Shown: positions 28,157-61,419, numbered from the whole stretch's first letter. The stretch is DNA of 63,075 nucleotides, filler included, from Diploschistes diacapsis (GCA_023645945.1; 8 parts of 8 records of this genome joined end to end with filler, not necessarily neighbours in it); one strand, 5' to 3'. The notes: generated by a model from the sequence alone, not told the origin. Numbers and translations are program-made.

Positions 28157-29277
28157 TGAGTATATTTACTAGACATCTATCGAGTTACTTTGTTGTGCAA
28201 GGTACTTGAATGGTTATCATATGTATGTTCTCCAGTGGTAGCATCTTTATCAGAGACCACTTTATCTATCATGTCTTGGAAGCAGCCGGCTCTCACCTTG
28301 TCTCGAATGTTTGAATAGGCCTGGGCACTTTTCGGGTTGATGGTTAATCCATTTCAGCCATATCAAATACGTGAATGTCAGGCGTGATCCGAAGATTGGA
28401 GCAATAAAACAGCAATTCAGAGTCCCGAGCGTCAACCATCCTTAGGATACTGATAGCTACGAGCCTGAAACGGGAACGATTCCACCATTTTCTTGTCCTG
28501 TCTGAAGGCCAAATTCTTTCCAAGCAAGTACAACGAAAGTGGATGAAAAATACAATGAAATTTCTAAATACTTCTCAATCTGGCCAATCCAAAGCTATGT
28601 GGGGTGTATGAGAGAACGGGTCGGAGCGAGCGCTAGTACAAGTCATTTTCGTTGTTCCATAACCGATGGCAGCCCAAATTGGAGGTGCAATGGAAGCATC
28701 TCACTTACCATCCGCTCGATGGTCGGCGTTGACACATCCTCTCACCCGAAGTCACGGGGCAAGTCCTAGGTGAAGCTAGGCCGAGTGCACTGTGAAGGAA
28801 ACAGAGCCTGGATATGGCTTTGAGTACGGTCCGTTTGTTAGCACGTTGGTAGGAAATAAGCCTGCATTATTGCCAGGTAATAAGTAGGAGCTTTATGGCC
28901 AATTTGCGCACCTTATGGGAGGTTTGTTACCAATCGAACCGCTGTAAGAGTTGGCAAAGCAGTATGCTAGATGGGCTTCCAAACTCTTGAAGATTGCGAG
29001 TCCTCTTTAGGCTTCGTCCTTATCAATAGGTATTGGGGAATTCCTAACAAACTATTTAGACATAGGAGTCGAAAGCTCTGCATGTTTAGAAGGAGATCAC
29101 GTTCAAACTTCATTCGTCGCTTCCCGCATGCTATCGTACACATTAATCCTCAGAGTTTGCTTGGAGATCGACCAGACATTTGTAACCTGTGCTAACGCCG
29201 TCAGTCGTGCATTCCTCCGTGTTGCTCGCATCATCCATAGTAAGCCTTTTGAAACAAGCCAACGTTGCGGCCATTTC

Positions 29278-31251
29278 CTAGAGGTCTCCACCGACATCCA
29301 TGCCCTCTTCATTCTCGTCATCTTCCTCTTCGGCTTCCTGATCCTCATCCGCAAAGATTTTCTCCATCCTGGCCGCCTTCAGACGCGCCACCATCTCCTC
29401 CCGTCTTGTGTCTTGCCATCTCTGCAGAGCCGCGGCCGCGTGCACTTTGAAGCCGAAAATCTTGAGTTCGTACCTTGCCGTGCTTTTCTCGGGCACCAAG
29501 GCGGGATACACCTGGAAGAGGATGTTGGGGAAAGAAGTTCCGAAGTAGGCACCGTCGACGGTAGCATGTTTGGAGGACTTGGGGCTGTAGACGTCCTCGC
29601 ATTTGGGACAGAAGAGTTTGACATGCTGCACCCCGGCGACGTCGGAAAGACCGGTAGGGAGAAGATGAGTGGTGGAGCAATGGACGCGAGGGCATTTGCC
29701 GAATTCGCCTTTCTTGTACTTGTCCAGCTAAGAAGTGAGGTAAGTTAGCCATTGAATGGTTTGATGTCTAGACGAGGGAGGGGCATATTCTTAGCAGCCT
29801 TACCATCTTCGAAAGGCCGCGAGTGGTGGTTATGTAACGTGCGTGAACGAGACCGTAGAGATGGCGGGCGGATTTCTCGATCTGCTCTCGCATCTCATCA
29901 TCGCAGTCGACGTCAAAGACATCCGTAACAAGATCGAGAGCGTACTGATAGTATTGAACTTCGGCGTTGAGGCCCGTGAGGTTGAAACGGTCGGTCAGAT
30001 ACTCTTCATCAATCTCACAAAAGTACTCGTTCCCACGTGAAGAGATGAACTGTGCACGCTGTTAGCCATTGGACTGGACAAAACGTTGTTCTATGAAATG
30101 CAGATAGACAAAAGGTAAATGTAACCGTGGCTCGATCATGGATGCCTGCCAGTAGATTGGGTCCGAGCTCTGCGTACATTATCTGACCACGGCATTTCCT
30201 TGACGTCGAACTGAGCAGTGATTTTGAGAATGCCTTTCTCAACATTGCGGTACGTAAACTTTAGTTTACGCGCCATACTATCGACCAATGCATCAACTTC
30301 AGCCCAAACAAGTTCGTAAAGTATCTCGCGAGAATTTCTGTCCCCCCACGGCCAGTATTTTGATCGGACTTCATGAAGGTATTCGCCTCCTTCACCGTTG
30401 TGTGAAGGTCTACAGAGGAATTTCTCTTGGGCCAGCTTGGTTTTCTTGATGACGAGAGCAAAAAATCTATTGCGTGATTCATTGTCTGCCCAGGCCTTGA
30501 ATCTCCCCAAAGCCTCTATCATTTTTCTCGAATCATTAAGGGAAGATGAAGGAGCCAGATTCCCATCCTCCTCGGCGTTCCAATTTTTAACGGGAACGAT
30601 TGGATGAGTCAAATTCACATCCACTTCGGTGTCATTGGGAGAAGATGAAGGAGCCCCATTGTCATCCACCTTGGTGTCAGTACGGGGATTTCTTGCCTGA
30701 TATTGCTGGAGTGCCATGTCTTCTTCGGGATACGCGGCTTTCTTGAGGCCTTCTGTGTCTTCAGACCCCAAGATCTCCCGAGCTTGGATGTCCATGTCTA
30801 CGTCCATGATGACAGTACTCTCGTTGCTAGCCGACTGCATTCCTAGAGTAGCGAGTGATCCAGATCGTAGCGTATAGTATAGAAGTACGACCACCGCGAA
30901 TAAATGATGGGGTTCCTGATGAGATGAGACCAATGCTCTTCTCAAAAAGCTGAGAAAGTAGTGCCTAATAGTCCGACGAGTGTTCAAGGTTCGCTCTCAA
31001 GTACGCTTGTTATTATTCCCACTCCATCAGCAGGCAGCGCTGTTGGTCAAAACTTTTCTCTCGGTCTGTTGCATCAACGTGCCAGATGATCCTGAGTCCT
31101 TGGGTCCAGCGGCGGCAGCAGTAAAAACGATAACAAGGCGCAGTAAGACCCGGCCAAACTTTTCATGATAACGACATATAGGAAAGACACTTACCCAGTC
31201 ACGCCAGTAGCTCGTGTAATCTGATTCCGTCTCACTGCCAAACTCATCCAT
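29278..31251 (-). CDS. CKB2: Casein kinase II regulatory subunit beta-2, with an unusually long first intron
   Basis: Exon 1 MDEFGSETESDYTSYWRDW (31251-31195); exon 2 FISSRGNEYFCEIDEEYLTDRFNLTGL..LYGLVHARYI (30049-29804); exon 3 FGKCPRVHC..VKLFCPKCEDVYSPKS..VDGAYFGTSF..KIFGFKV (29727-29278). Confidence 0.95.
30136..30840 (-). CDS. Hypothetical 234-aa protein nested in CKB2 intron 1
   Basis: Stop-free frame of ~860 nt (ATG at 30840) lying wholly inside the 1145-nt intron. Acidic disordered N-half with a repeated GxxxPSSSxND motif and an aromatic-rich, globular-looking C-half. No family recognised. Confidence 0.55.
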   Translation of the reverse strand: MQSASNESTVIMDVDMDIQAREILGSEDTEGLKKAAYPEEDMALQQYQARNPRTDTKVDDNGAPSSSPNDTEVDVNLTHPIVPVKNWNAEEDGNLAPSSSLNDSRKMIEALGRFKAWADNESRNRFFALVIKKTKLAQEKFLCRPSHNGEGGEYLHEVRSKYWPWGDRNSREILYELVWAEVDALVDSMARKLKFTYRNVEKGILKITAQFDVKEMPWSDNVRRARTQSTGRHP

Positions 31252-31568
31252 TTTAGATATGCCGGGTAAACTAGCAGCTTCCAAGATAGAAATGAATAAG
31301 GCTCGGCAACCAGAGTGTAATGTATAGATCTGGCATACCAAGCCTTTACTCAGGATATCTAAGTCCTCACACTTTGATAACTCAGAAGAAATGCCAAGAT
31401 CTGAGAAGTTCAGGGGAATTCACGTGATAGTCACCTCAGCATCCATCTAACCATAAAAAGCTAGCCTGCTTGTGGAACAATGAGTATTCCATCATCGTCT
31501 TGTTACATTTGCCACTAGATACCTTGATTTAACACCAACCTATCTCGAAAATTGCGTGTTCATCCATC

Positions 31569-33027
31569 ATGGCTCCTTCGAGCGGCCACATACTGGTCCC
31601 GAAGGCCGTGAAGGCTTTCAGGTAAGTACGCTGATCGGATCCTAGAATAGTAGCTGACAAGTTCAAGATATGCAGTATCCAAGGGCGCTGCCTTCATCAG
31701 ATCTCGCCTGCAGCATGATGCCTCGAAACCCATGCTCGAGGCTATACCAGCTCGTATCAACAAGCAACCACTTCATCCTCTCGCAGCTCTCCGACAGGCT
31801 CGTTCGCAGCAAAGGGGTTTCAGCACTGCCGCTCGACGTATCGTTTCAAGCGCGGTAGGCTCAGCAAGAGTCGTCAGACCAGCCCCCGCAACTTCAGTGC
31901 GGGCAGTACTCTCGCGGACAACCCTCGCACCTTTCTCTTCTCCTTTACGCCCTAACCTGACTGGTGGAGCCCTTCCTCGAGCCTCGGGAGGCTACTCCCT
32001 CGGCGGCGGCGTGCGCCACTTCTCCCACACCCCGGCAGCCCAGGCCCAAGTCCTGCACAACGTCTCTGCCGGCGTACGCGCATTCTTCGTCAACGGTTTT
32101 AAGGCTGAATACGATGGGACTGACCCTCACACTGGAAACAAGCGCTTCCGTGCCGTGACCAACACCCAACAGAAAGCACTCTCCAGCTTTCGCACCACCA
32201 AGCCCAATAGCAAAGGCACCACCCTCGAATTCTGCATTGCCCCTAGCATAAGCTCAGTCTCACTGCTCGACACGGCAGAGAACACCATCGACTCCGCCTC
32301 CGTCCTCACCGGCCTCGCCTCAGACTTCTCCCGATCCCTCGCCTCCCTCGCCCTCGTCCACACAGACCTTAAGCGTCTTTCAGCCCTCGGCTCCCTACCA
32401 ATCTCGCAGCCCAACCCACATACCCTCCAAGTCCGTTTCCCAGGCTGCGACGGCAAAACAGTCAACACCCTCTGCGACGAACTGGGCATCCAGCGTGGCA
32501 TCATCAAAGAAGATCCAGCATGGGACACCGAGGAAGGGGACCGGGACGTTGGGATGGCGCTGCTCTTCCCCTGGGCACCCTCAAAGCCGGCGTCGGAGTT
32601 CTCGGAAGATGTGACAGATATGGCAGACACATCTTTCTCGCGGCCCGACCCAGTGGGAACGAGGACCCTCGGCCGAACTGATAGCCTTGAGTGGCACAGT
32701 ATGCTCTCGCCCTCTCCGCCATTTGCGTCCTTTGCTCCGGTAGAAAAGAGCCTGGATAGCTTCTCGATCCTTGCTCCCTCGCACGAGAATCCATGGGCCG
32801 AGCACAGCACGAGCGCGAGCGCGAGCTTCGACGGCCTAAGGGAGAGCGATCTTGAGTCCAACGACGAATACGCTGTTGGGGGGCTGGAGCTTACGAGGAC
32901 GGAGACGGTGCGGCAAACCCAGACGCAGGCGGAGCTGGAGCAAAGATTGCCGCAGAGTTTTGCGGACTATGAGGGGACGGAGGGAATCCTGAGGTTTTTG
33001 GAAGCCTGTGATGGTGCACGGAGATGA
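31569..33027 (+). CDS. Fungal hypothetical protein divergent from CKB2
   Basis: Exon 1 MAPSSGHILVPKAVKAFR, intron 31622-31675, then a long exon with GGALPRASGGYSLGGGVRHFSH, QVRFPGCD, ELGIQRGII and DYEGTEGILRFLE. Arg/Ser-rich N-terminus. No CK2-beta motifs. Confidence 0.8.
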
Positions 33028-44040: not shown

Positions 44041-44140
44041 NNNNNNNNNNNNNNNNNNNNNNNNNNNNNNNNNNNNNNNNNNNNTTAATTAATTAANNNN
44101 NNNNNNNNNNNNNNNNNNNNNNNNNNNNNNNNNNNNNNNN
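44041..44140. other. Artificial contig spacer
   Basis: 44 N + TTAATTAATTAA + 44 N. Confidence 0.98.
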
Positions 44141-50119: not shown

Positions 50120-51765
50120 CTAGCTAAGGCTGCTGCTACTCGACGCCCCCATACCATCCCACAACAGTCTGCACCGAGAATCCTTGTATTCTGCTCTTTC
50201 GAGCACCTTGATCCGAATATCCTCCAGAGGGGTCAGAATCGACGTGGTAATATGCGGACGGCGCCTGGGCATGATCCAGGATCCAGAAGCCGGGATGATG
50301 TCGTATCTTAGCGCGACTAGCACGGCGACAAATCGACATCTCGTTGGAGGCCAGGAACCGGCCTGGACATAACGAAGTCCCTCCTCCAAATGCCCTGAAA
50401 GCGCCGGTAGCAGCTTTGGTACCGCTAGGGTCATTCGCCATGAACCGCCGAGGATTAAATAGATGGCATGAAGGACCCCAAGCCGAGGAATTGCTGTGCA
50501 GTTCCGCAGAAGGCACTAGGAGAAACGAATCTTTCTTTAGGAGATAGCGATTCTCCAGAAGGGTGTTGCTCAACACTACGCGACCCGAAGCATTGGTTGC
50601 TTGGACCCGGAGCGTCTCTTGAATAAGAGCCTGAAGCACGTCACAGCTTTTGGCTACTTCATGGACATCCAGCTCGCAGACCTTTTGACCGGTTGATGTA
50701 GTGCTTACCCGAATTTGAGCCAAGGACTTCTTCCGAACTTCTGCCAGAAGCCATGCTTCCGAGTAAAGGTAGTAGAGCACCCAAGCGGTTGCAGGAACAG
50801 TGTTGCAAGAAGTCCGATGCAAACGCGCAGGTCAAAAATGCTCGATATCTTCCTTGGAGATACCTTATTGCCTGTTGACCCCGTAACGAGCCCCGCACCA
50901 AGGGCGAGGCCTCTTTCCGCCAGTCTCCAGCATAATAGTTTCGGAATCCTTCGAAGAATGTCTGCCGCCCTTTGTATGCGCTAGGTGACAGGAGTCGCGG
51001 TATAATATTCAAAGCCCAGAAGACCAAAGCCTGTATCAACCGCCCTGAGCAAAATCAGCACATTTAAGCAGATCCACGGCGAAAGCCAATAGGAGCACAC
51101 GTACCAGAATCCAGCCTCTACTTTCGGGTCTCGAAACGGGTTATCCTGTGCTCCATAGATAGCATATGTGCTGGATCGACTAATCAGTTTCCTCATCCAA
51201 ACGAAGAGTCCAGTTCCCTGCTGGAGGCTGGGTTCTCCGAGAAGCTTGGATACGCTCTCCAAGAAACTTCTCGATATCTGGTGCAAATCATCTCCTGGGG
51301 CCATGGTGGAATGCATAGCAGTCATCGTCTCAGGCCGGCAACCCCATGGTCCGCCATCTTCGTGCAGGTTTTCTTCCAGAGCAGCTAGTCCCGCGGCGCT
51401 GGGCTGCAAGATCCGTTTGGCGAACTGGTAGACATAGGGAGCGAAAGACAGAGTTCTCGAATTCCGGTCAACAGCTTTGGCAAGTGCGGGAGAGTTGATG
51501 ACGTAAATCTTGCAACTTGGTACATTTAGTGTGTAGATTGGAAGGGACACTTTAGCGCTGCTTGAACGTTAGCCATATTATACTGTTGGGAAACCTTGTC
51601 ATTTCCCACCTGAGATCCGTCTAGGAGCATACCTAGCAAGTGCCCGATATAGCGAACTACGGGACGCACTGCATGAGGCTCTCTTGGATCTTGAGTAGCT
51701 GATGTTAGGATCTTTAGCAATATCGAGCAGCTGCCCAGGACGCAGATGGAAAGCAACCACAGCAT
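50120..51765 (-). pseudogene. Cytochrome P450 pseudogene B (NTxP I-helix, CYP7/8-like type)
   Basis: NTVPATAW, IQETLR and AFGGGTSLCPGRFLA are present. Frameshifts near 51012, 50892, 50805 and 50335, and a TAA at 50865-50867. Confidence 0.85.
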
Positions 51766-52080
51766 GTTCGAAGATGACTTTACTGTCTTCTATCTGGTAG
51801 AAACTACCAAAGGTAAGATTAGCGAGAACAAAGAGTAACTGTAGAGATGGAGAGTTTCATCCCCAGGACGGACCAAAGACACTTACGCCCATTCTAGGCA
51901 AAAGCCTCGGGTAGCTCGACCCGGACGGCAATGAACAACATACCGACGCACAATATTAGGAACAGACACTTCACCTACTTGTTTCGCATTCCTCTACCTT
52001 ATCGAAGTCGGATCGAAGCATTTCACTTTACGCACACCTCTCCAGTCACCATGAATCAGCTAAAATTTTGCAGAGTGTAG

Positions 52081-53970
52081 CTAAACGGAACTATTTCTAC
52101 ACCTCTTTGGTACCCGCAGTGGCTCCTCGACGGCGTAGCCGAAAGGGAATCTTGGAGTGCGGTCTACGGACCCCAAACCGAATCGCTCTGAGCCATACTG
52201 AATCTGGCTTTCCGGAACCAATATCTCTATTTCAAACATGCCCAGTAACATAGAATTTGAGAGGAGCATAACCCTCCTCGCAAAGGCACTACCTGGACAC
52301 GCATGGTGCCCCCTGGGCAACCAGTCAGTCAGACTTAGCAGTGGATCAAATATGACAACAGACCTCCGTATGGAATCCACGAGCCTTCGAGGCCTTCAGT
52401 AAAGAATTCAGTGGTATTGGACTCATCCCCTAGCCATAATCCAACGTTGTTGGCTGGGTCCGATTTGCTGCTCTTGAGAGGGCCAGTGGTAGGATCGGTT
52501 GGATTCCTGAGGAAGCGCCCTGCCCAGAAGGTGTCGAGCGGATGTTTACCACTTTGAGTGTTCCATACCCTTTCGTCGTTATGAGCGAGCCAGGTGCTGA
52601 CTAGTACCAGCTTGTCTTTAGGTATCCATGTATTGCCCACCCTAAAATCTTTGTGAGGTTGCGAGCGAGGAATGTGGATCCGGACACCGAAACGTAGCGT
52701 TTCTGCATACATGGATTGTAGTAGGGGGTGCTTTTCTAGCACCTCAATATCTGGCACGAAGGATGTTTCGTTGGGCCTGTTCGTCGATCCGGACTCTCGA
52801 AGCACGGAAGACATGTCTGCTCTTCGAAGGATTTGGAGCATCAGGGTTGCAGAAGAGGGTACTGCGTTTGTAATCGCTCTTAGAATGTTAGGTTCGTGTA
52901 GAGACCTTGAAAAGACAAAGCGTCAAGTAATTCAGGGGGGGTTCTTACGCCCAAATAAACGCAAAATCCGTGGATGCAATGGAATCTTGGTCCTGAGCCT
53001 GATATTCGGCGAGCAGTTTATATCGACTTCTCATTATCGGTGGGTCGCAGAAAGTGTCCAGGTCACTGCCTGAATTATCCTTCGGCTGTTGTTGAGCGAG
53101 TGTGTGCCATTGCTTAATAGCCGTTAAAATCTTCTTTCTCAGCAAATAGGCTCTTGGTGCTAGAAGGAAGGGGATTCGCTTAGCAAGCCCAATGACGACT
53201 CTATCAAAAGCCCAAATATCGGACACAAAATTCAGATTGTAGTCGAGGAGTGCAGAGCCGAAGGCAGCTTCTATGACAGCTGCTCTAAGATACTGCTCAA
53301 AAAACTCAACCAGGTCATCAAACTGTACCCATTCCGGCCCAGCATTCGCAGAGTCTAGGCTCTTGGCCAAGGTCTTTTGGAAACGTAGCAAAAGCGGTGC
53401 AAGACCAGGTCCTGGAAGCCCTTTGTGGAGACTCGTGTGAGTGAGGTAGCCGACTCTGTTTGGATGAGCGACGTTACTCCCAGCTAATGGCCTGGGTAGA
53501 GATCCCGAACCATCTGCAAAGTATGTAACAGCAGCTTTTCTGGTTATCCCAAAACAATGCTTTAAATCTATGCCGTAAGCACGTGTGACAGTCGTCGATG
53601 AAGATTTGAAAAGTGCCGCGACATAATCTGGCCTATGTAAAACAAAGACATCCTCATTGATTAGGCCAATGCAGACGGCTGACTCATAAGCTGGAGTCTT
53701 GCTAAACCAGTTGTTAGGCAATCCCGGATCAGAGAAAGCAGTTGAGGGTGACTTCACTTAATACAACAGAATAACGTTAGTCCGTCGAAGAGAAATGGAA
53801 TAGTACTTTTCAGCCATGGAATCGAGTAGCTCAACGCCGTAGAGCACATCTATGAGAAGCTCCGCCCATAATGCGAATGGCCATGTAACGCATGATTCAT
53901 GAACCTCGCGAGTTATCCAAGATCTTGGAATCAGAGCTGAGAGCAAGTCAAGGTTCCAGGCAAGTATCAA
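52081..53970 (-). pseudogene. Cytochrome P450 C, with a degenerate 5' end
   Basis: LLQSMYAETLR and WIPYGG/GHHACPGSAFA are present. In-frame stop at 53758-53760 and no recognisable N-terminal anchor or start. The 5' boundary is uncertain. Confidence 0.7.
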
Positions 53971-59999: not shown

Positions 60000-61419
60000 A
60001 TGGCTTCTCATAACGTGACTGAGCTCCTCACGCGGCTCAACACTAGTACAGCCTCCTTCCTGAAGTTCTTCACGGAGAAGAATCTTCCTGAGCCAACTCA
60101 TGACAAAGGCGATGAGCTGGATCCTAGGGTGCCACTGCCGGCCGAGATTATAGCTGCTAGGGAGGCTGCCACTGAAGCATCAGACGAACTACACCACCTT
60201 CTCTTAGGGCCTCTTGGCCTTCTACTTAGCTCTCCGGGTGATGTAGGTAACTATGCATACACAGCCTCTCCATAAACTCGACTGGTGGTTGACGTTCACT
60301 AGCAATATCTGTTACTCGGTTTACAGTATGCTTATCGACATGAAAACCCCAGTTGTGTTCCTCTCGAGGGGAAGACAACATTCGACAATATCGCCAAGGA
60401 GCGAAATCTCGAATAGGCCATGTGACCCACACTGCAGCTTCGAGGCTGTTGCTGGATAATCCAATGTTGAAGGCATGGATCATGAACATTGCCGAGGAGT
60501 TTTGGCCTTCTTTGTCTCGAGTTCGTCTCAGCATTTCTTGTTTTGGATTCAACCTCATAGACTCTTAGACAGTCGATGCTACTTTCAAGTGGCCGGGCTC
60601 CGAGGAGCCAGACGAGAGCGTAAGGCCTCCAAAGCATAGCTTAATAAACTAGCACTGAAGAGGAGCAGGGATATTCCTTATCACACGATACGAACGAGAA
60701 CCCTTTCGACGTGATTAAAAAGGACCCGAAGCGGCAGGAGCAGTTCATCGATGCTATGAGCTACTCGCATCTTCATTCTTCTTACAGCATGGACCACCTC
60801 ATCAGTAACTACGATTTTGGTGTCATAGGCAATGGGACTATCGTTGATGTCGGTGGGTCCCATGGACAAGTCGCTATTGCTATAGCTCGCAAGTATCCGC
60901 ATGTGAATTGCATTGTTCAAGATCTCCCGGATACCATCGCCGGCCTCGAATCGCGAATCCCAGATGAGCTCAGACACCGAATTACCGGGATTGAGCATGA
61001 CTTCCTGAAGCCCCAACCAGTGCAAGGGGCAGATATTTACCTGTTTCGCTGGATCTTGCACGACTGGTCTGATAAATACTGCGTCAAGATCTTGCAATCC
61101 TTAGTCCCGGCACTGAAGAAAGGGGCTAAAATCGTCGTCAACGATATATGCATCCCAAAGCCTGGTCAGCTTGGGATAGCTGCCGATAGGAATCTTCGGT
61201 GAGCTACTAAAGTACCTTCTCACGATTCCGTAGAACTTACTTTGCAATCAAGGCTCATGGACATCTTCGATGAAAGCTTTCAATAATGCCAGGGAGCGCG
61301 ATCCAGAGACTTGGGTCTCCTTGTTCGTTCAAGCAGACTCACGTTTCAACTTTAAAGGCATCATGATGCCTCCGGAAGCAAGAATGGCTATTATCATAGC
61401 TGAATGGGATGTCTTGTAG
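60000..61419 (+). pseudogene. SAM-dependent O-methyltransferase (OmtA/OmtB-like), disrupted
   Basis: IVDVGGSHG, CIVQDLP, EHDFLKPQP, YLFRWILHDWSD and NARERD are present. Frameshifting deletion near 60410 (the segment normally preceding GHVTHTAAS is missing) and a +1 frameshift near 61266. Confidence 0.82.

What the first reader, a model, noticed from the sequence alone, without database searches (positions are those of the whole stretch)
30050..31194. Same-strand ORF nested inside a 1145-nt first intron of CKB2
Seen: CKB2 exon 1 (..YWRDW|GTAAGT at 31194) joins exon 2 (GCTAAC..CAG|FISSRGNEY at 30049) across 1145 nt, whereas other introns in this window are about 45-140 nt. The intron holds a frame open from 30996 to 30136 (234 aa from the ATG at 30840) that stops ~70 nt before the branch point. 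It shows no AT-rich RIP signature, no TIR or LTR, and no transposase or endonuclease motif that I can see. Inference: it is either a same-strand nested gene or an alternative terminal exon. An in-frame CAG at 30918-30916 (weak branch site) would fuse the acidic CK2-beta N-terminal peptide to a different protein. Either would couple an unknown protein to CK2 regulatory-subunit expression.
Basis: partly seen in the sequence, partly recalled or inferred. Interest (0 to 1): 0.75.

Follow-up and report, generated by a model that had tools for sequence, protein, structure and literature searches.

The report
Orphan coding ORF inside CKB2 intron
A lichen fungus carries a 234-codon, protein-like reading frame with no known relatives inside an unusually long first intron of its casein kinase 2 beta gene, and without RNA data it is open whether this is a nested gene, an alternative first exon or a silent passenger.

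Summary
On the minus strand, a CK2-beta (CKB2) gene has a 57-nt exon 1 (31251-31195) and exon 2 starting at 30049. They are separated by a 1145-nt GT..AG intron holding a 286-codon open frame, 234 aa from the ATG at 30840.

- **Coding character:** codon usage matches the window's known genes (z about 5 against stop-free random frames). The signal starts at the ATG and is absent from the open stretch upstream.
- **Relatives:** none in Pfam, PDB or 1.84 billion representative proteins.
- **Assembly:** contigs from other samples (98-99% identical) bridge both ends of the ORF, so it is not a misassembly.
- **GenBank model:** an ab initio model splices the ORF in as an internal exon (469 aa).
- **Splice option:** an in-phase GTACGC donor at 30177 could join the ORF to exon 2 across a normal 128-nt intron.
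- **Context:** orthologue gene models are often mis-built at this same junction.

Best reading (about 0.4): an orphan coding unit read from its own ATG on transcripts that start inside the intron. Normal CK2-beta comes from removing the whole intron. No RNA data were available. Interest is moderate.

The parts
31195..31251 (-). CKB2 exon 1: 19 codons, ATG to ..YWRDW, phase 0
   Evidence: Read. The same N-terminal peptide directly abuts FISSRGNEY in relatives L001 and L002. The one X2 difference here (31213) is synonymous.
30050..31194 (-). CKB2 intron 1, 1145 nt: GTAAGT donor, GCTAAC branch, CAG acceptor
30841..30996 (-). Open but non-coding-like stretch upstream of the ORF's ATG. No ATG in any frame from 31026 down to 30841.
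   Evidence: Codon score z=-0.09. The last upstream ATG is at 31027, where about 2.9 ATGs would be expected in 186 nt. X3 has an extra C behind 30893.
30136..30840 (-). Orphan ORF, 234 codons plus TGA stop (P0001)
   Evidence: No relatives found. Coding-like codon usage.
30178..30834 (-). The 219 codons that the GenBank model KAI4151394.1 includes as an internal exon
   Evidence: With this exon the window encodes P0002 exactly.
30172..30177 (-). Candidate donor GTACGC, in phase 0 with the ORF, 128 nt from the exon 2 acceptor
   Evidence: It is the only in-phase GT in the ORF that fits GTRNGY. It was picked up as a complete intron-like pattern.
30061..30066 (-). Branch site GCTAAC, the only consensus branch+acceptor in 31260-30040
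30533..30677 (-). Two copies of a 46-nt core (78% identical), 99 nt apart and in frame (..APSSS.ND.. twice)
29804..30049 (-). CKB2 exon 2
   Evidence: Lies within the Pfam CK_II_beta match.
29728..29803 (-). CKB2 intron 2, 76 nt (GTAAGG..TCTTAG)
29278..29727 (-). CKB2 exon 3 with TAG stop

Best explanation
The ORF at 30840-30136 is a genuine, lineage-restricted (orphan) protein-coding sequence sitting in the first intron of CKB2.

Shown: normal CK2-beta (250 aa) requires the whole 1145-nt intron to be removed, joining exon 1 to exon 2.

Inferred: the ORF is read from its own ATG on transcripts that start inside the intron, somewhere in the ATG-free 186 nt upstream. This makes it a same-strand nested transcription unit. 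Such a transcript can end translation at the TGA at 30136, giving a 234-aa protein. Or it can use the GTACGC donor at 30177 and the shared acceptor to continue into CKB2 exon 2.
For: 1. **Coding character.**
   - The codon score of 0.135 bits/codon is the best of the six frames. It lies within the range of the window's Pfam-supported exons, -0.09 to 0.27.
   - z=5.2 and 4.8 against two stop-free nulls, with 0/5000 and 0/3000 reaching it.
   - Both halves score: z=4.1 and 3.7.
   - Base use by codon position matches known genes (G1 0.35, T1 0.16 against 0.35, 0.17).
2. **The signal begins at the ATG.** The open stretch upstream scores z=-0.09. The 186 nt before the ATG hold no ATG where about 2.9 are expected.
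3. **No usable acceptor in front of the ORF.** The only consensus branch+acceptor is at exon 2, so entry by splicing from exon 1 is unlikely.
4. **A complete start-to-stop frame,** with no open frame of note on the other strand.
5. **Independent contigs.** Pieces from other samples (X2, X3, X4; 98-99% identical) bridge exon 2 to the ORF and the ORF to exon 1.
   - Listed indels fall outside the ORF (behind 30893 and 31015 in X3).
   - X2 differs at 5-9 of 702 ORF positions against 11 of 443 flanking intron positions (Fisher p=0.018 to 0.16).
6. **Exon 1 is still needed.** It keeps the N-terminal peptide that abuts FISS in relatives.
Against: - No RNA evidence of any kind was available.
- There are no homologues, so conservation cannot be shown.
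- Of the 5 listed ORF differences in X2, 3 change the residue and 2 do not, which is no sign of constraint.
- The divergence contrast loses significance if the up to 4 unlisted differences lie in the ORF.
- The codon test is not fully specific: an ORF antisense to CKB2 exons (29011-29745) reached z=4.0.
- The single-sequence AlphaFold model is unusable at mean pLDDT 35.4.
- The protein atlas gave no usable hit and a low recognition value of 1173. The tool says this does not decide whether a gene is real.
- Only 86 nt separate the stop from exon 2, and I saw no terminator signal there. A free-standing mRNA end is therefore hard to place.
- A good internal donor would compete with the exon 1 donor for the single acceptor on CKB2 pre-mRNA.
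Confidence: 0.4

Rival explanations
1. Silent passenger. A once-functional small gene, or a copy of one, was inserted into the intron fairly recently. It is simply spliced out with the intron and has not yet decayed.
For: - Coding-like statistics fit a former gene as well as a current one.
- The only comparison available is with 98-99% identical copies, too close to expect decay.
- The split of 3 replacement to 2 silent differences is close to neutral.
- No RNA holder was listed.
Against: - No parent copy or relative appears in 1.84 billion representatives, which include this species' deposited proteome, or elsewhere in the window.
- No repeat or insertion scars bound it.
- The frame is complete from ATG to stop, and the coding signal starts at the ATG.
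Confidence: 0.3
2. Internal exon, as in the GenBank model KAI4151394.1. Exon 1 is spliced to 30834, and the ORF from 30834 to 30178 is spliced to exon 2. This gives a 469-aa CK2-beta with 219 extra residues between YWRDW and FISS.
For: - The window encodes that 469-aa protein exactly with GT..AG borders and the frame preserved.
- The donor at 30177 fits the genome's GTRNGY pattern.
Against: - No branch-site consensus precedes the acceptor at 30835.
- The model is ab initio. In the passages I read, funannotate was given ESTs and proteins from other lichens, and the term RNA-seq does not occur in the paper (PMC9907504).
- The insert would split the CK_II_beta domain near its start. The Pfam match begins at W16 in P0003.
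- No orthologue has a homologous insert.
- 14 of the 120 listed orthologue models carry unrelated extra residues at this same junction, several starting with V as if the intron had been read through. This points to a recurrent modelling artefact.
- Any Val codon and any codon ending in AG gives an in-phase site, so frame preservation is cheap.
Confidence: 0.1
3. Alternative terminal exon. Exon 1 joins at the CAG at 30918-30916 and translation runs to the TGA at 30136. This fuses the acidic N-terminal peptide to the orphan protein.
For: - The CAG is in frame with the ORF.
- It has a pyrimidine-rich run before it: 0.71 of 17 positions.
Against: - Only a relaxed CTCAT branch candidate is present.
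- The stretch from 30915 to 30841 shows no coding signal.
- X3 has an extra C behind 30893, which would break the frame. This rests on a single contig at depth 3 and may be an error.
Confidence: 0.03
4. Chance open frame in a long regulatory first intron. CKB2 intron 1 is long in many Pezizomycotina, and the frame means nothing.
For: Orthologue models imply long sequence at this junction in other classes, with inserts of 258, 181 and 162 residues in Coniosporium, Lachnellula and Sclerotinia models.
Against: - 286 stop-free codons.
- Codon score z of about 5, with 0 of 8000 stop-free random frames reaching it.
- The coding signal has sharp limits.
Confidence: 0.05

Closest known systems
Host/nested gene pairs, where a gene lies wholly inside an intron of another (well described in Drosophila and mammals; PMC3814207 and PMC11694760, search listing and start of abstract only)
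   Same: A complete start-to-stop coding frame lies entirely within one intron of a host gene.
   Different: - The host is a filamentous fungus whose introns are mostly under 150 nt.
- The ORF is on the same strand as the host.
- It ends only 86 nt before the next host exon.
- Its own promoter and RNA end are not shown.
- My one full-text search for nested genes in fungal introns listed no fungal nuclear example among its 15 rows. That is not proof that none is in print.
Alternative first exons and internal promoters that give N-terminal protein isoforms (general knowledge, recalled)
   Same: An ATG-initiated coding block is followed by an in-phase donor that shares the acceptor of the constitutive exon 2.
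   Different: - No transcript evidence exists.
- The block has no relatives.
- It would replace a conserved 19-residue CK2-beta N-terminus.
Mis-modelled CKB2 orthologues with foreign residues between YWRDW and FISS, or lacking exon 1
   Same: The extra sequence sits at the same junction and the same conserved phase-0 intron position. The public model of this locus belongs to this group.
   Different: Here the included sequence has a measurable coding signature and one long frame. I could not test this for the other species because no DNA was available.
Orphan or de novo genes arising in non-genic DNA, including introns (PMC7841160 and PMC6542195, start of abstract only)
   Same: No detectable homologue, and located in intronic DNA.
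   Different: 234 codons with host-like codon usage is long for a young de novo frame. The origin (de novo, fast divergence or insertion) is undetermined.

Membership tests
CK2 regulatory subunit (Pfam CK_II_beta, PF01214): the host gene | Full-length match to the CK_II_beta profile | tested here: met
   P0002 residues 235-414 match profile positions 2-182 of 182, E=1.1e-70. 1471 hits at E<=1e-10, and named ones are called casein kinase II subunit beta-2 or Ckb2.
CK2 regulatory subunit (Pfam CK_II_beta, PF01214): the host gene | Four-cysteine zinc-binding motif (CPxxxC ... CPxC). The motif is recalled, not taken from a tool. | tested here: met
   CPRVHC and CPKC are present in exon 3. C332, C337, C360 and C363 are invariant in alignment A1.
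CK2 regulatory subunit (Pfam CK_II_beta, PF01214): the host gene | N-terminal ..YWRDW directly followed by FISSRGNEY in the mature protein | tested here: met
   This requires removal of 31194-30050. Contiguous in L001 and L002 and in 67 of 120 listed orthologue models.
Nested (intronic) protein-coding gene | Lies wholly inside one intron of the host | tested here: met
   ORF 30840-30136 lies within intron 31194-30050.
Nested (intronic) protein-coding gene | Sequence has protein-coding character | tested here: met
   Caveat: an antisense-of-coding control reached z=4.0.
Nested (intronic) protein-coding gene | Own transcription start and own RNA 3' end | not testable with these tools
   No listed run is on record as RNA. 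No whole genome is held.
Nested (intronic) protein-coding gene | Purifying selection on the frame | tested here: inconclusive
   Only 98-99% identical copies were available. Listed differences are 3 replacement and 2 silent. Divergence is lower than in the flanks, p=0.018-0.16.
Cassette or internal exon of CKB2 | Branch site and acceptor in front of the exon | tested here: not met
   No NCTRAY..YAG before 30834 or 30915.
Cassette or internal exon of CKB2 | In-phase donor behind the exon | tested here: met
   GTACGC at 30177.
Cassette or internal exon of CKB2 | Homologous insert in orthologues | tested here: not met
   The ORF has no hit other than itself. Inserts in other models are unrelated.
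Transposable element, homing endonuclease or other mobile insert | Terminal inverted or direct repeats, or LTRs | tested here: not met
   Only 13-18-nt matches of chance size.
Transposable element, homing endonuclease or other mobile insert | Transposase, reverse transcriptase or endonuclease domain | tested here: not met
   Pfam found none at E<=1. PDB found none at E<=10.
Transposable element, homing endonuclease or other mobile insert | Several copies in the genome | tested here: inconclusive
   No second copy in the 63-kb window by blastn or tblastn. The whole genome is not held.
Intron-hosted small RNA (such as a snoRNA) | Match to an Rfam family | tested here: not met
   0 matches at E<=1 in 29000-31800, both strands.

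The most novel reading that the evidence does not exclude
The ORF is an alternative first exon of CKB2. Transcripts starting inside intron 1 are translated from the ATG at 30840 and spliced from 30177 to 30049. They would yield a roughly 452-aa CK2-beta isoform in which the conserved 19-residue N-terminus is replaced by a 221-residue lineage-specific domain. One locus would then make two different regulatory subunits. Retention of the 128-nt intron would instead give the free 234-aa protein.
Probability: 0.15. Interest if true: 0.6.

Novelty: new member of a known kind. Interest (0 to 1): 0.35.

Why it matters
- **If expressed:** this would be a rare same-strand coding unit nested in an intron of a compact fungal genome. 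It would tie an orphan protein physically to the regulatory subunit of an essential, highly conserved kinase. Expression either stands alone or is fused to that subunit.
- **Practical point:** the deposited 469-aa model of this gene is probably wrong. CKB2 exon 1 and intron 1 are a recurrent trap for gene predictors across Pezizomycotina.
- **If silent:** it is a clean example of how coding-like DNA inside an intron is absorbed into ab initio gene models.

Tried and rejected
- **RNA evidence:** no RNA holder was listed among 9 runs, so expression could not be addressed.
- **Own genome:** not held.
- **Relatives of the ORF:** none found in any of these searches.
  - Word-based search: 1 hit, itself, among 112 candidates.
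  - HMMER against 1.84 billion representatives: itself only.
  - Pfam, PDB sequences and protein atlas: nothing.
  - JGI metagenome scan: 4 loci, none holding the ORF although three of the six patterns came from it.
- **Structure:** AlphaFold without an alignment gave mean pLDDT 35.4. No fold search was run because it would be meaningless at that confidence.
- **More distant relative:** the X5 contig (4840 nt) matched only the exons at about 80% and ran on unlike right after the acceptor. This says nothing about whether it holds an ORF.
- **Small RNA in the intron:** Rfam found none.
- **Mobile element:** no terminal repeats, no domain and no second copy in the window. Helitron-type capture was considered because a listed paper reports Helitron enrichment in lichen fungi (PMC13535494, listing and start of abstract only). 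I had no way to test copy number or termini.
- **Internal 99-nt repeat as a clock:** only a 46-nt core is alike (78%). The rest is at chance level (45% over 111 nt), and differences are even over codon positions at 3/4/3. I dropped it as an argument for long-term frame maintenance.
- **Similarity between the exon 1 end and the ORF tail:** 15 nt at 80% (D3). Judged chance.
- **Earlier findings of this scan:** three look-ups returned nothing.

Full report
**What is there.** On the minus strand, the window encodes a casein kinase 2 regulatory subunit of the beta-2 (CKB2) type.
- Exon 1 (31251-31195) gives 19 residues ending ..YWRDW and is followed by GTAAGT.
- Exon 2 starts at 30049 with FISSRGNEYFCEID, behind a GCTAAC branch site (30066-30061) and a CAG acceptor.
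- Intron 1 is 1145 nt, intron 2 is 76 nt, and the three-exon protein is 250 aa.
- Pfam CK_II_beta matches at E=1.1e-70.
- Named orthologues are called casein kinase II subunit beta-2 or Ckb2.
- In two related contigs from JGI collections the reading frame runs straight through ..YWRDWFISSRGNEY.. (L001 and L002).
- Inside intron 1, on the same strand, a frame is open from 30996 to 30136 (286 codons). Its first ATG at 30840 gives 234 aa (P0001).

**Organism and public model.** P0001 is in the protein collection as a Logan-derived call. Its only cluster mate is KAI4151394.1, 'MAG: hypothetical protein LQ340_003528 [Diploschistes diacapsis]', 469 aa. The window encodes that protein exactly if ORF codons 3-221 (30834-30178) are used as an internal exon between exon 1 and exon 2.

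From the passages I read, that assembly was annotated with funannotate (Augustus, GlimmerHMM, SNAP, EVM). It was given ESTs and proteins from three other lichens, and the term 'RNA-seq' does not occur in the text (PMC9907504). The 469-aa model is therefore an ab initio prediction, not evidence of splicing.

**Is the frame real coding sequence?** I built a codon table from 2608 codons. These came from Pfam-matched stretches of long ORFs in the window (14 of 22 long ORFs had a family) plus CKB2 exons 2 and 3.
- The ORF scores 0.135 bits per codon, the best of its six frames. Left-out known exons score -0.09 to 0.27.
- Against stop-free random frames of the ORF's base composition, z=5.2 (0 of 5000 reach it). 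Against a first-order model of the flanking non-coding DNA, z=4.8 (0 of 3000).
- Both halves carry the signal (z=4.1 and 3.7). The 52 open codons upstream of the ATG do not (z=-0.09). The 13 codons behind the candidate donor are too few to judge.
- Base use by codon position matches known genes.
- Caveat: a 245-codon ORF antisense to CKB2 exons reached z=4.0, so the test does not exclude every non-gene. No comparable frame is open opposite the ORF.

**No relatives.**

| Search | Result |
|---|---|
| Pfam, E<=1 | none |
| Word-indexed search of 5.8 billion clusters | itself only |
| HMMER over 1.84 billion representatives | itself only |
| PDB sequences, E<=10 | none |
| Protein atlas | no usable hit |
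| Rest of the window | no second copy |
| AlphaFold without an alignment | uninformative, pLDDT 35.4 |

**Not an assembly artefact.** Contigs of three other coded runs (X2, X3, X4, from studies other than the likely source) are 98-99% identical. One bridges exon 2 into the ORF (X2 record 3, 29636-30395). Another bridges the ORF into exon 1 and beyond (X2 record 8, 30627-31450).

What these close copies say about constraint is thin.
- Of 5 listed X2 differences in the ORF, 3 change the residue and 2 do not.
- X2 differs at 5 listed ORF positions (up to 9 counting unlisted ones in the pieces) of 702. It differs at 11 of 443 flanking intron positions (Fisher p=0.018 to 0.16).
- The listed indels in the intron (behind 30893 and 31015, X3, depth 3) lie outside the ORF.
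- 49 further differences were not shown by the tool.

**How could it be expressed?** Scanning 31260-30040 for a branch consensus followed within 40 nt by YAG finds only the exon 2 site.

Within the ORF, the only in-phase GT that fits the GTRNGY donor form seen in the window's intron-like patterns is GTACGC at 30177. Donors with C at +6 are frequent among those patterns. With the shared branch site and acceptor it makes a 128-nt intron of ordinary size.

An in-phase donor near the end of an ORF is not rare by chance, because any Val codon is a candidate. I estimate odds of roughly 0.1-0.25 for a consensus-fitting one.

The 186 nt before the ATG contain no ATG in any frame, where about 2.9 would be expected (P about 0.05).

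Taken together: entry from exon 1 by splicing is poorly supported, initiation at the ORF's own ATG fits best, and exit into exon 2 is possible.

**Context from orthologues.** I selected 13 orthologue models, mostly because they were long, and aligned them. Several carry unrelated residues exactly between YWRDW and FISS. A motif script then classified all 120 listed hits:

| Class | Models |
|---|---|
| The two motifs abut | 67 |
| 7-258 extra residues between them (Coniosporium 258, Lachnellula 181, Sclerotinia 162) | 14 |
| My exon 1 pattern missing | 27 |
| My exon 2 pattern failed | 12 |

Of the 27 lacking the exon 1 pattern, four by eye have a variant motif abutting FISS. Most of the rest start inside the intron and end in ..Q before FISS.

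The search admitted only proteins of 257 residues or more, which enriches for long models. The pattern shows a conserved phase-0 intron at this position, a tiny exon 1 that predictors often miss, and frequently long intervening sequence. A long CKB2 intron 1 may therefore not be peculiar to this fungus. I could not check this because no DNA of those species was available.

**Verdict.**

| Reading | Confidence |
|---|---|
| Orphan coding unit read from its own ATG on intron-internal transcripts, ending at the TGA at 30136 or spliced into exon 2; normal CK2-beta comes from removing the whole intron | 0.4 |
| Silent, recently lodged coding passenger | 0.3 |
| The GenBank internal exon | 0.1 |
| Chance open frame | 0.05 |

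- Shown: the anatomy, the coding-like statistics, the lack of relatives and the presence in independent samples.
- Inferred: any statement on transcription, splicing choice and function.
- Classification: a new member of a known kind (a nested intronic coding unit), of moderate interest.
- The boldest reading still open is an alternative first exon that gives CK2-beta a new 221-residue N-terminal domain.

Noticed in passing
Proteins P0005-P0124 (orthologues of the gene at window 29278-31251): Public CKB2 gene models across Pezizomycotina are often wrong at the exon 1/exon 2 junction. 14 of the 120 listed have 7-258 unrelated residues between YWRDW and FISS. About 23 lack exon 1 and start in the intron, ending ..Q before FISS. 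This suggests a conserved and often long first intron.
   Followed up: partly
window 31654-33027 (+): A 457-codon open frame lies divergent from CKB2, about 400 nt from its start codon. It has no Pfam family but a strong coding-like codon score (z=6.4). It is probably another lineage-restricted gene sharing a bidirectional promoter region with CKB2.
   Followed up: no
window 12295-14790 (+): An 831-codon open frame without any Pfam family but with coding-like codon usage (z=7.2).
   Followed up: no
window 50139-53757 (-) and 60648-61202 (+): Cytochrome P450 fragments (two ORFs) and an O-methyltransferase domain lie within about 11 kb of each other. This may be part of a secondary-metabolite gene cluster.
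   Followed up: no
window, between 18951 and 44140: The window contains 616 N. The first is at 18951 and the last at 44140. These are assembly gaps or masked stretches.
   Followed up: no
window 30360-30630: In run X2 the contigs break at about 30395, 30485 and 30593-30627. Several short alternative pieces overlap at 30366-30485. This fits a polymorphic stretch, or the effect of the internal 46-nt repeat, in that sample.
   Followed up: no
window 30179: X2, X3 and X4 all read C where the window has T. This changes the last ORF codon before the candidate donor from AAT to AGT (N to S), two bases upstream of the GT.
   Followed up: partly
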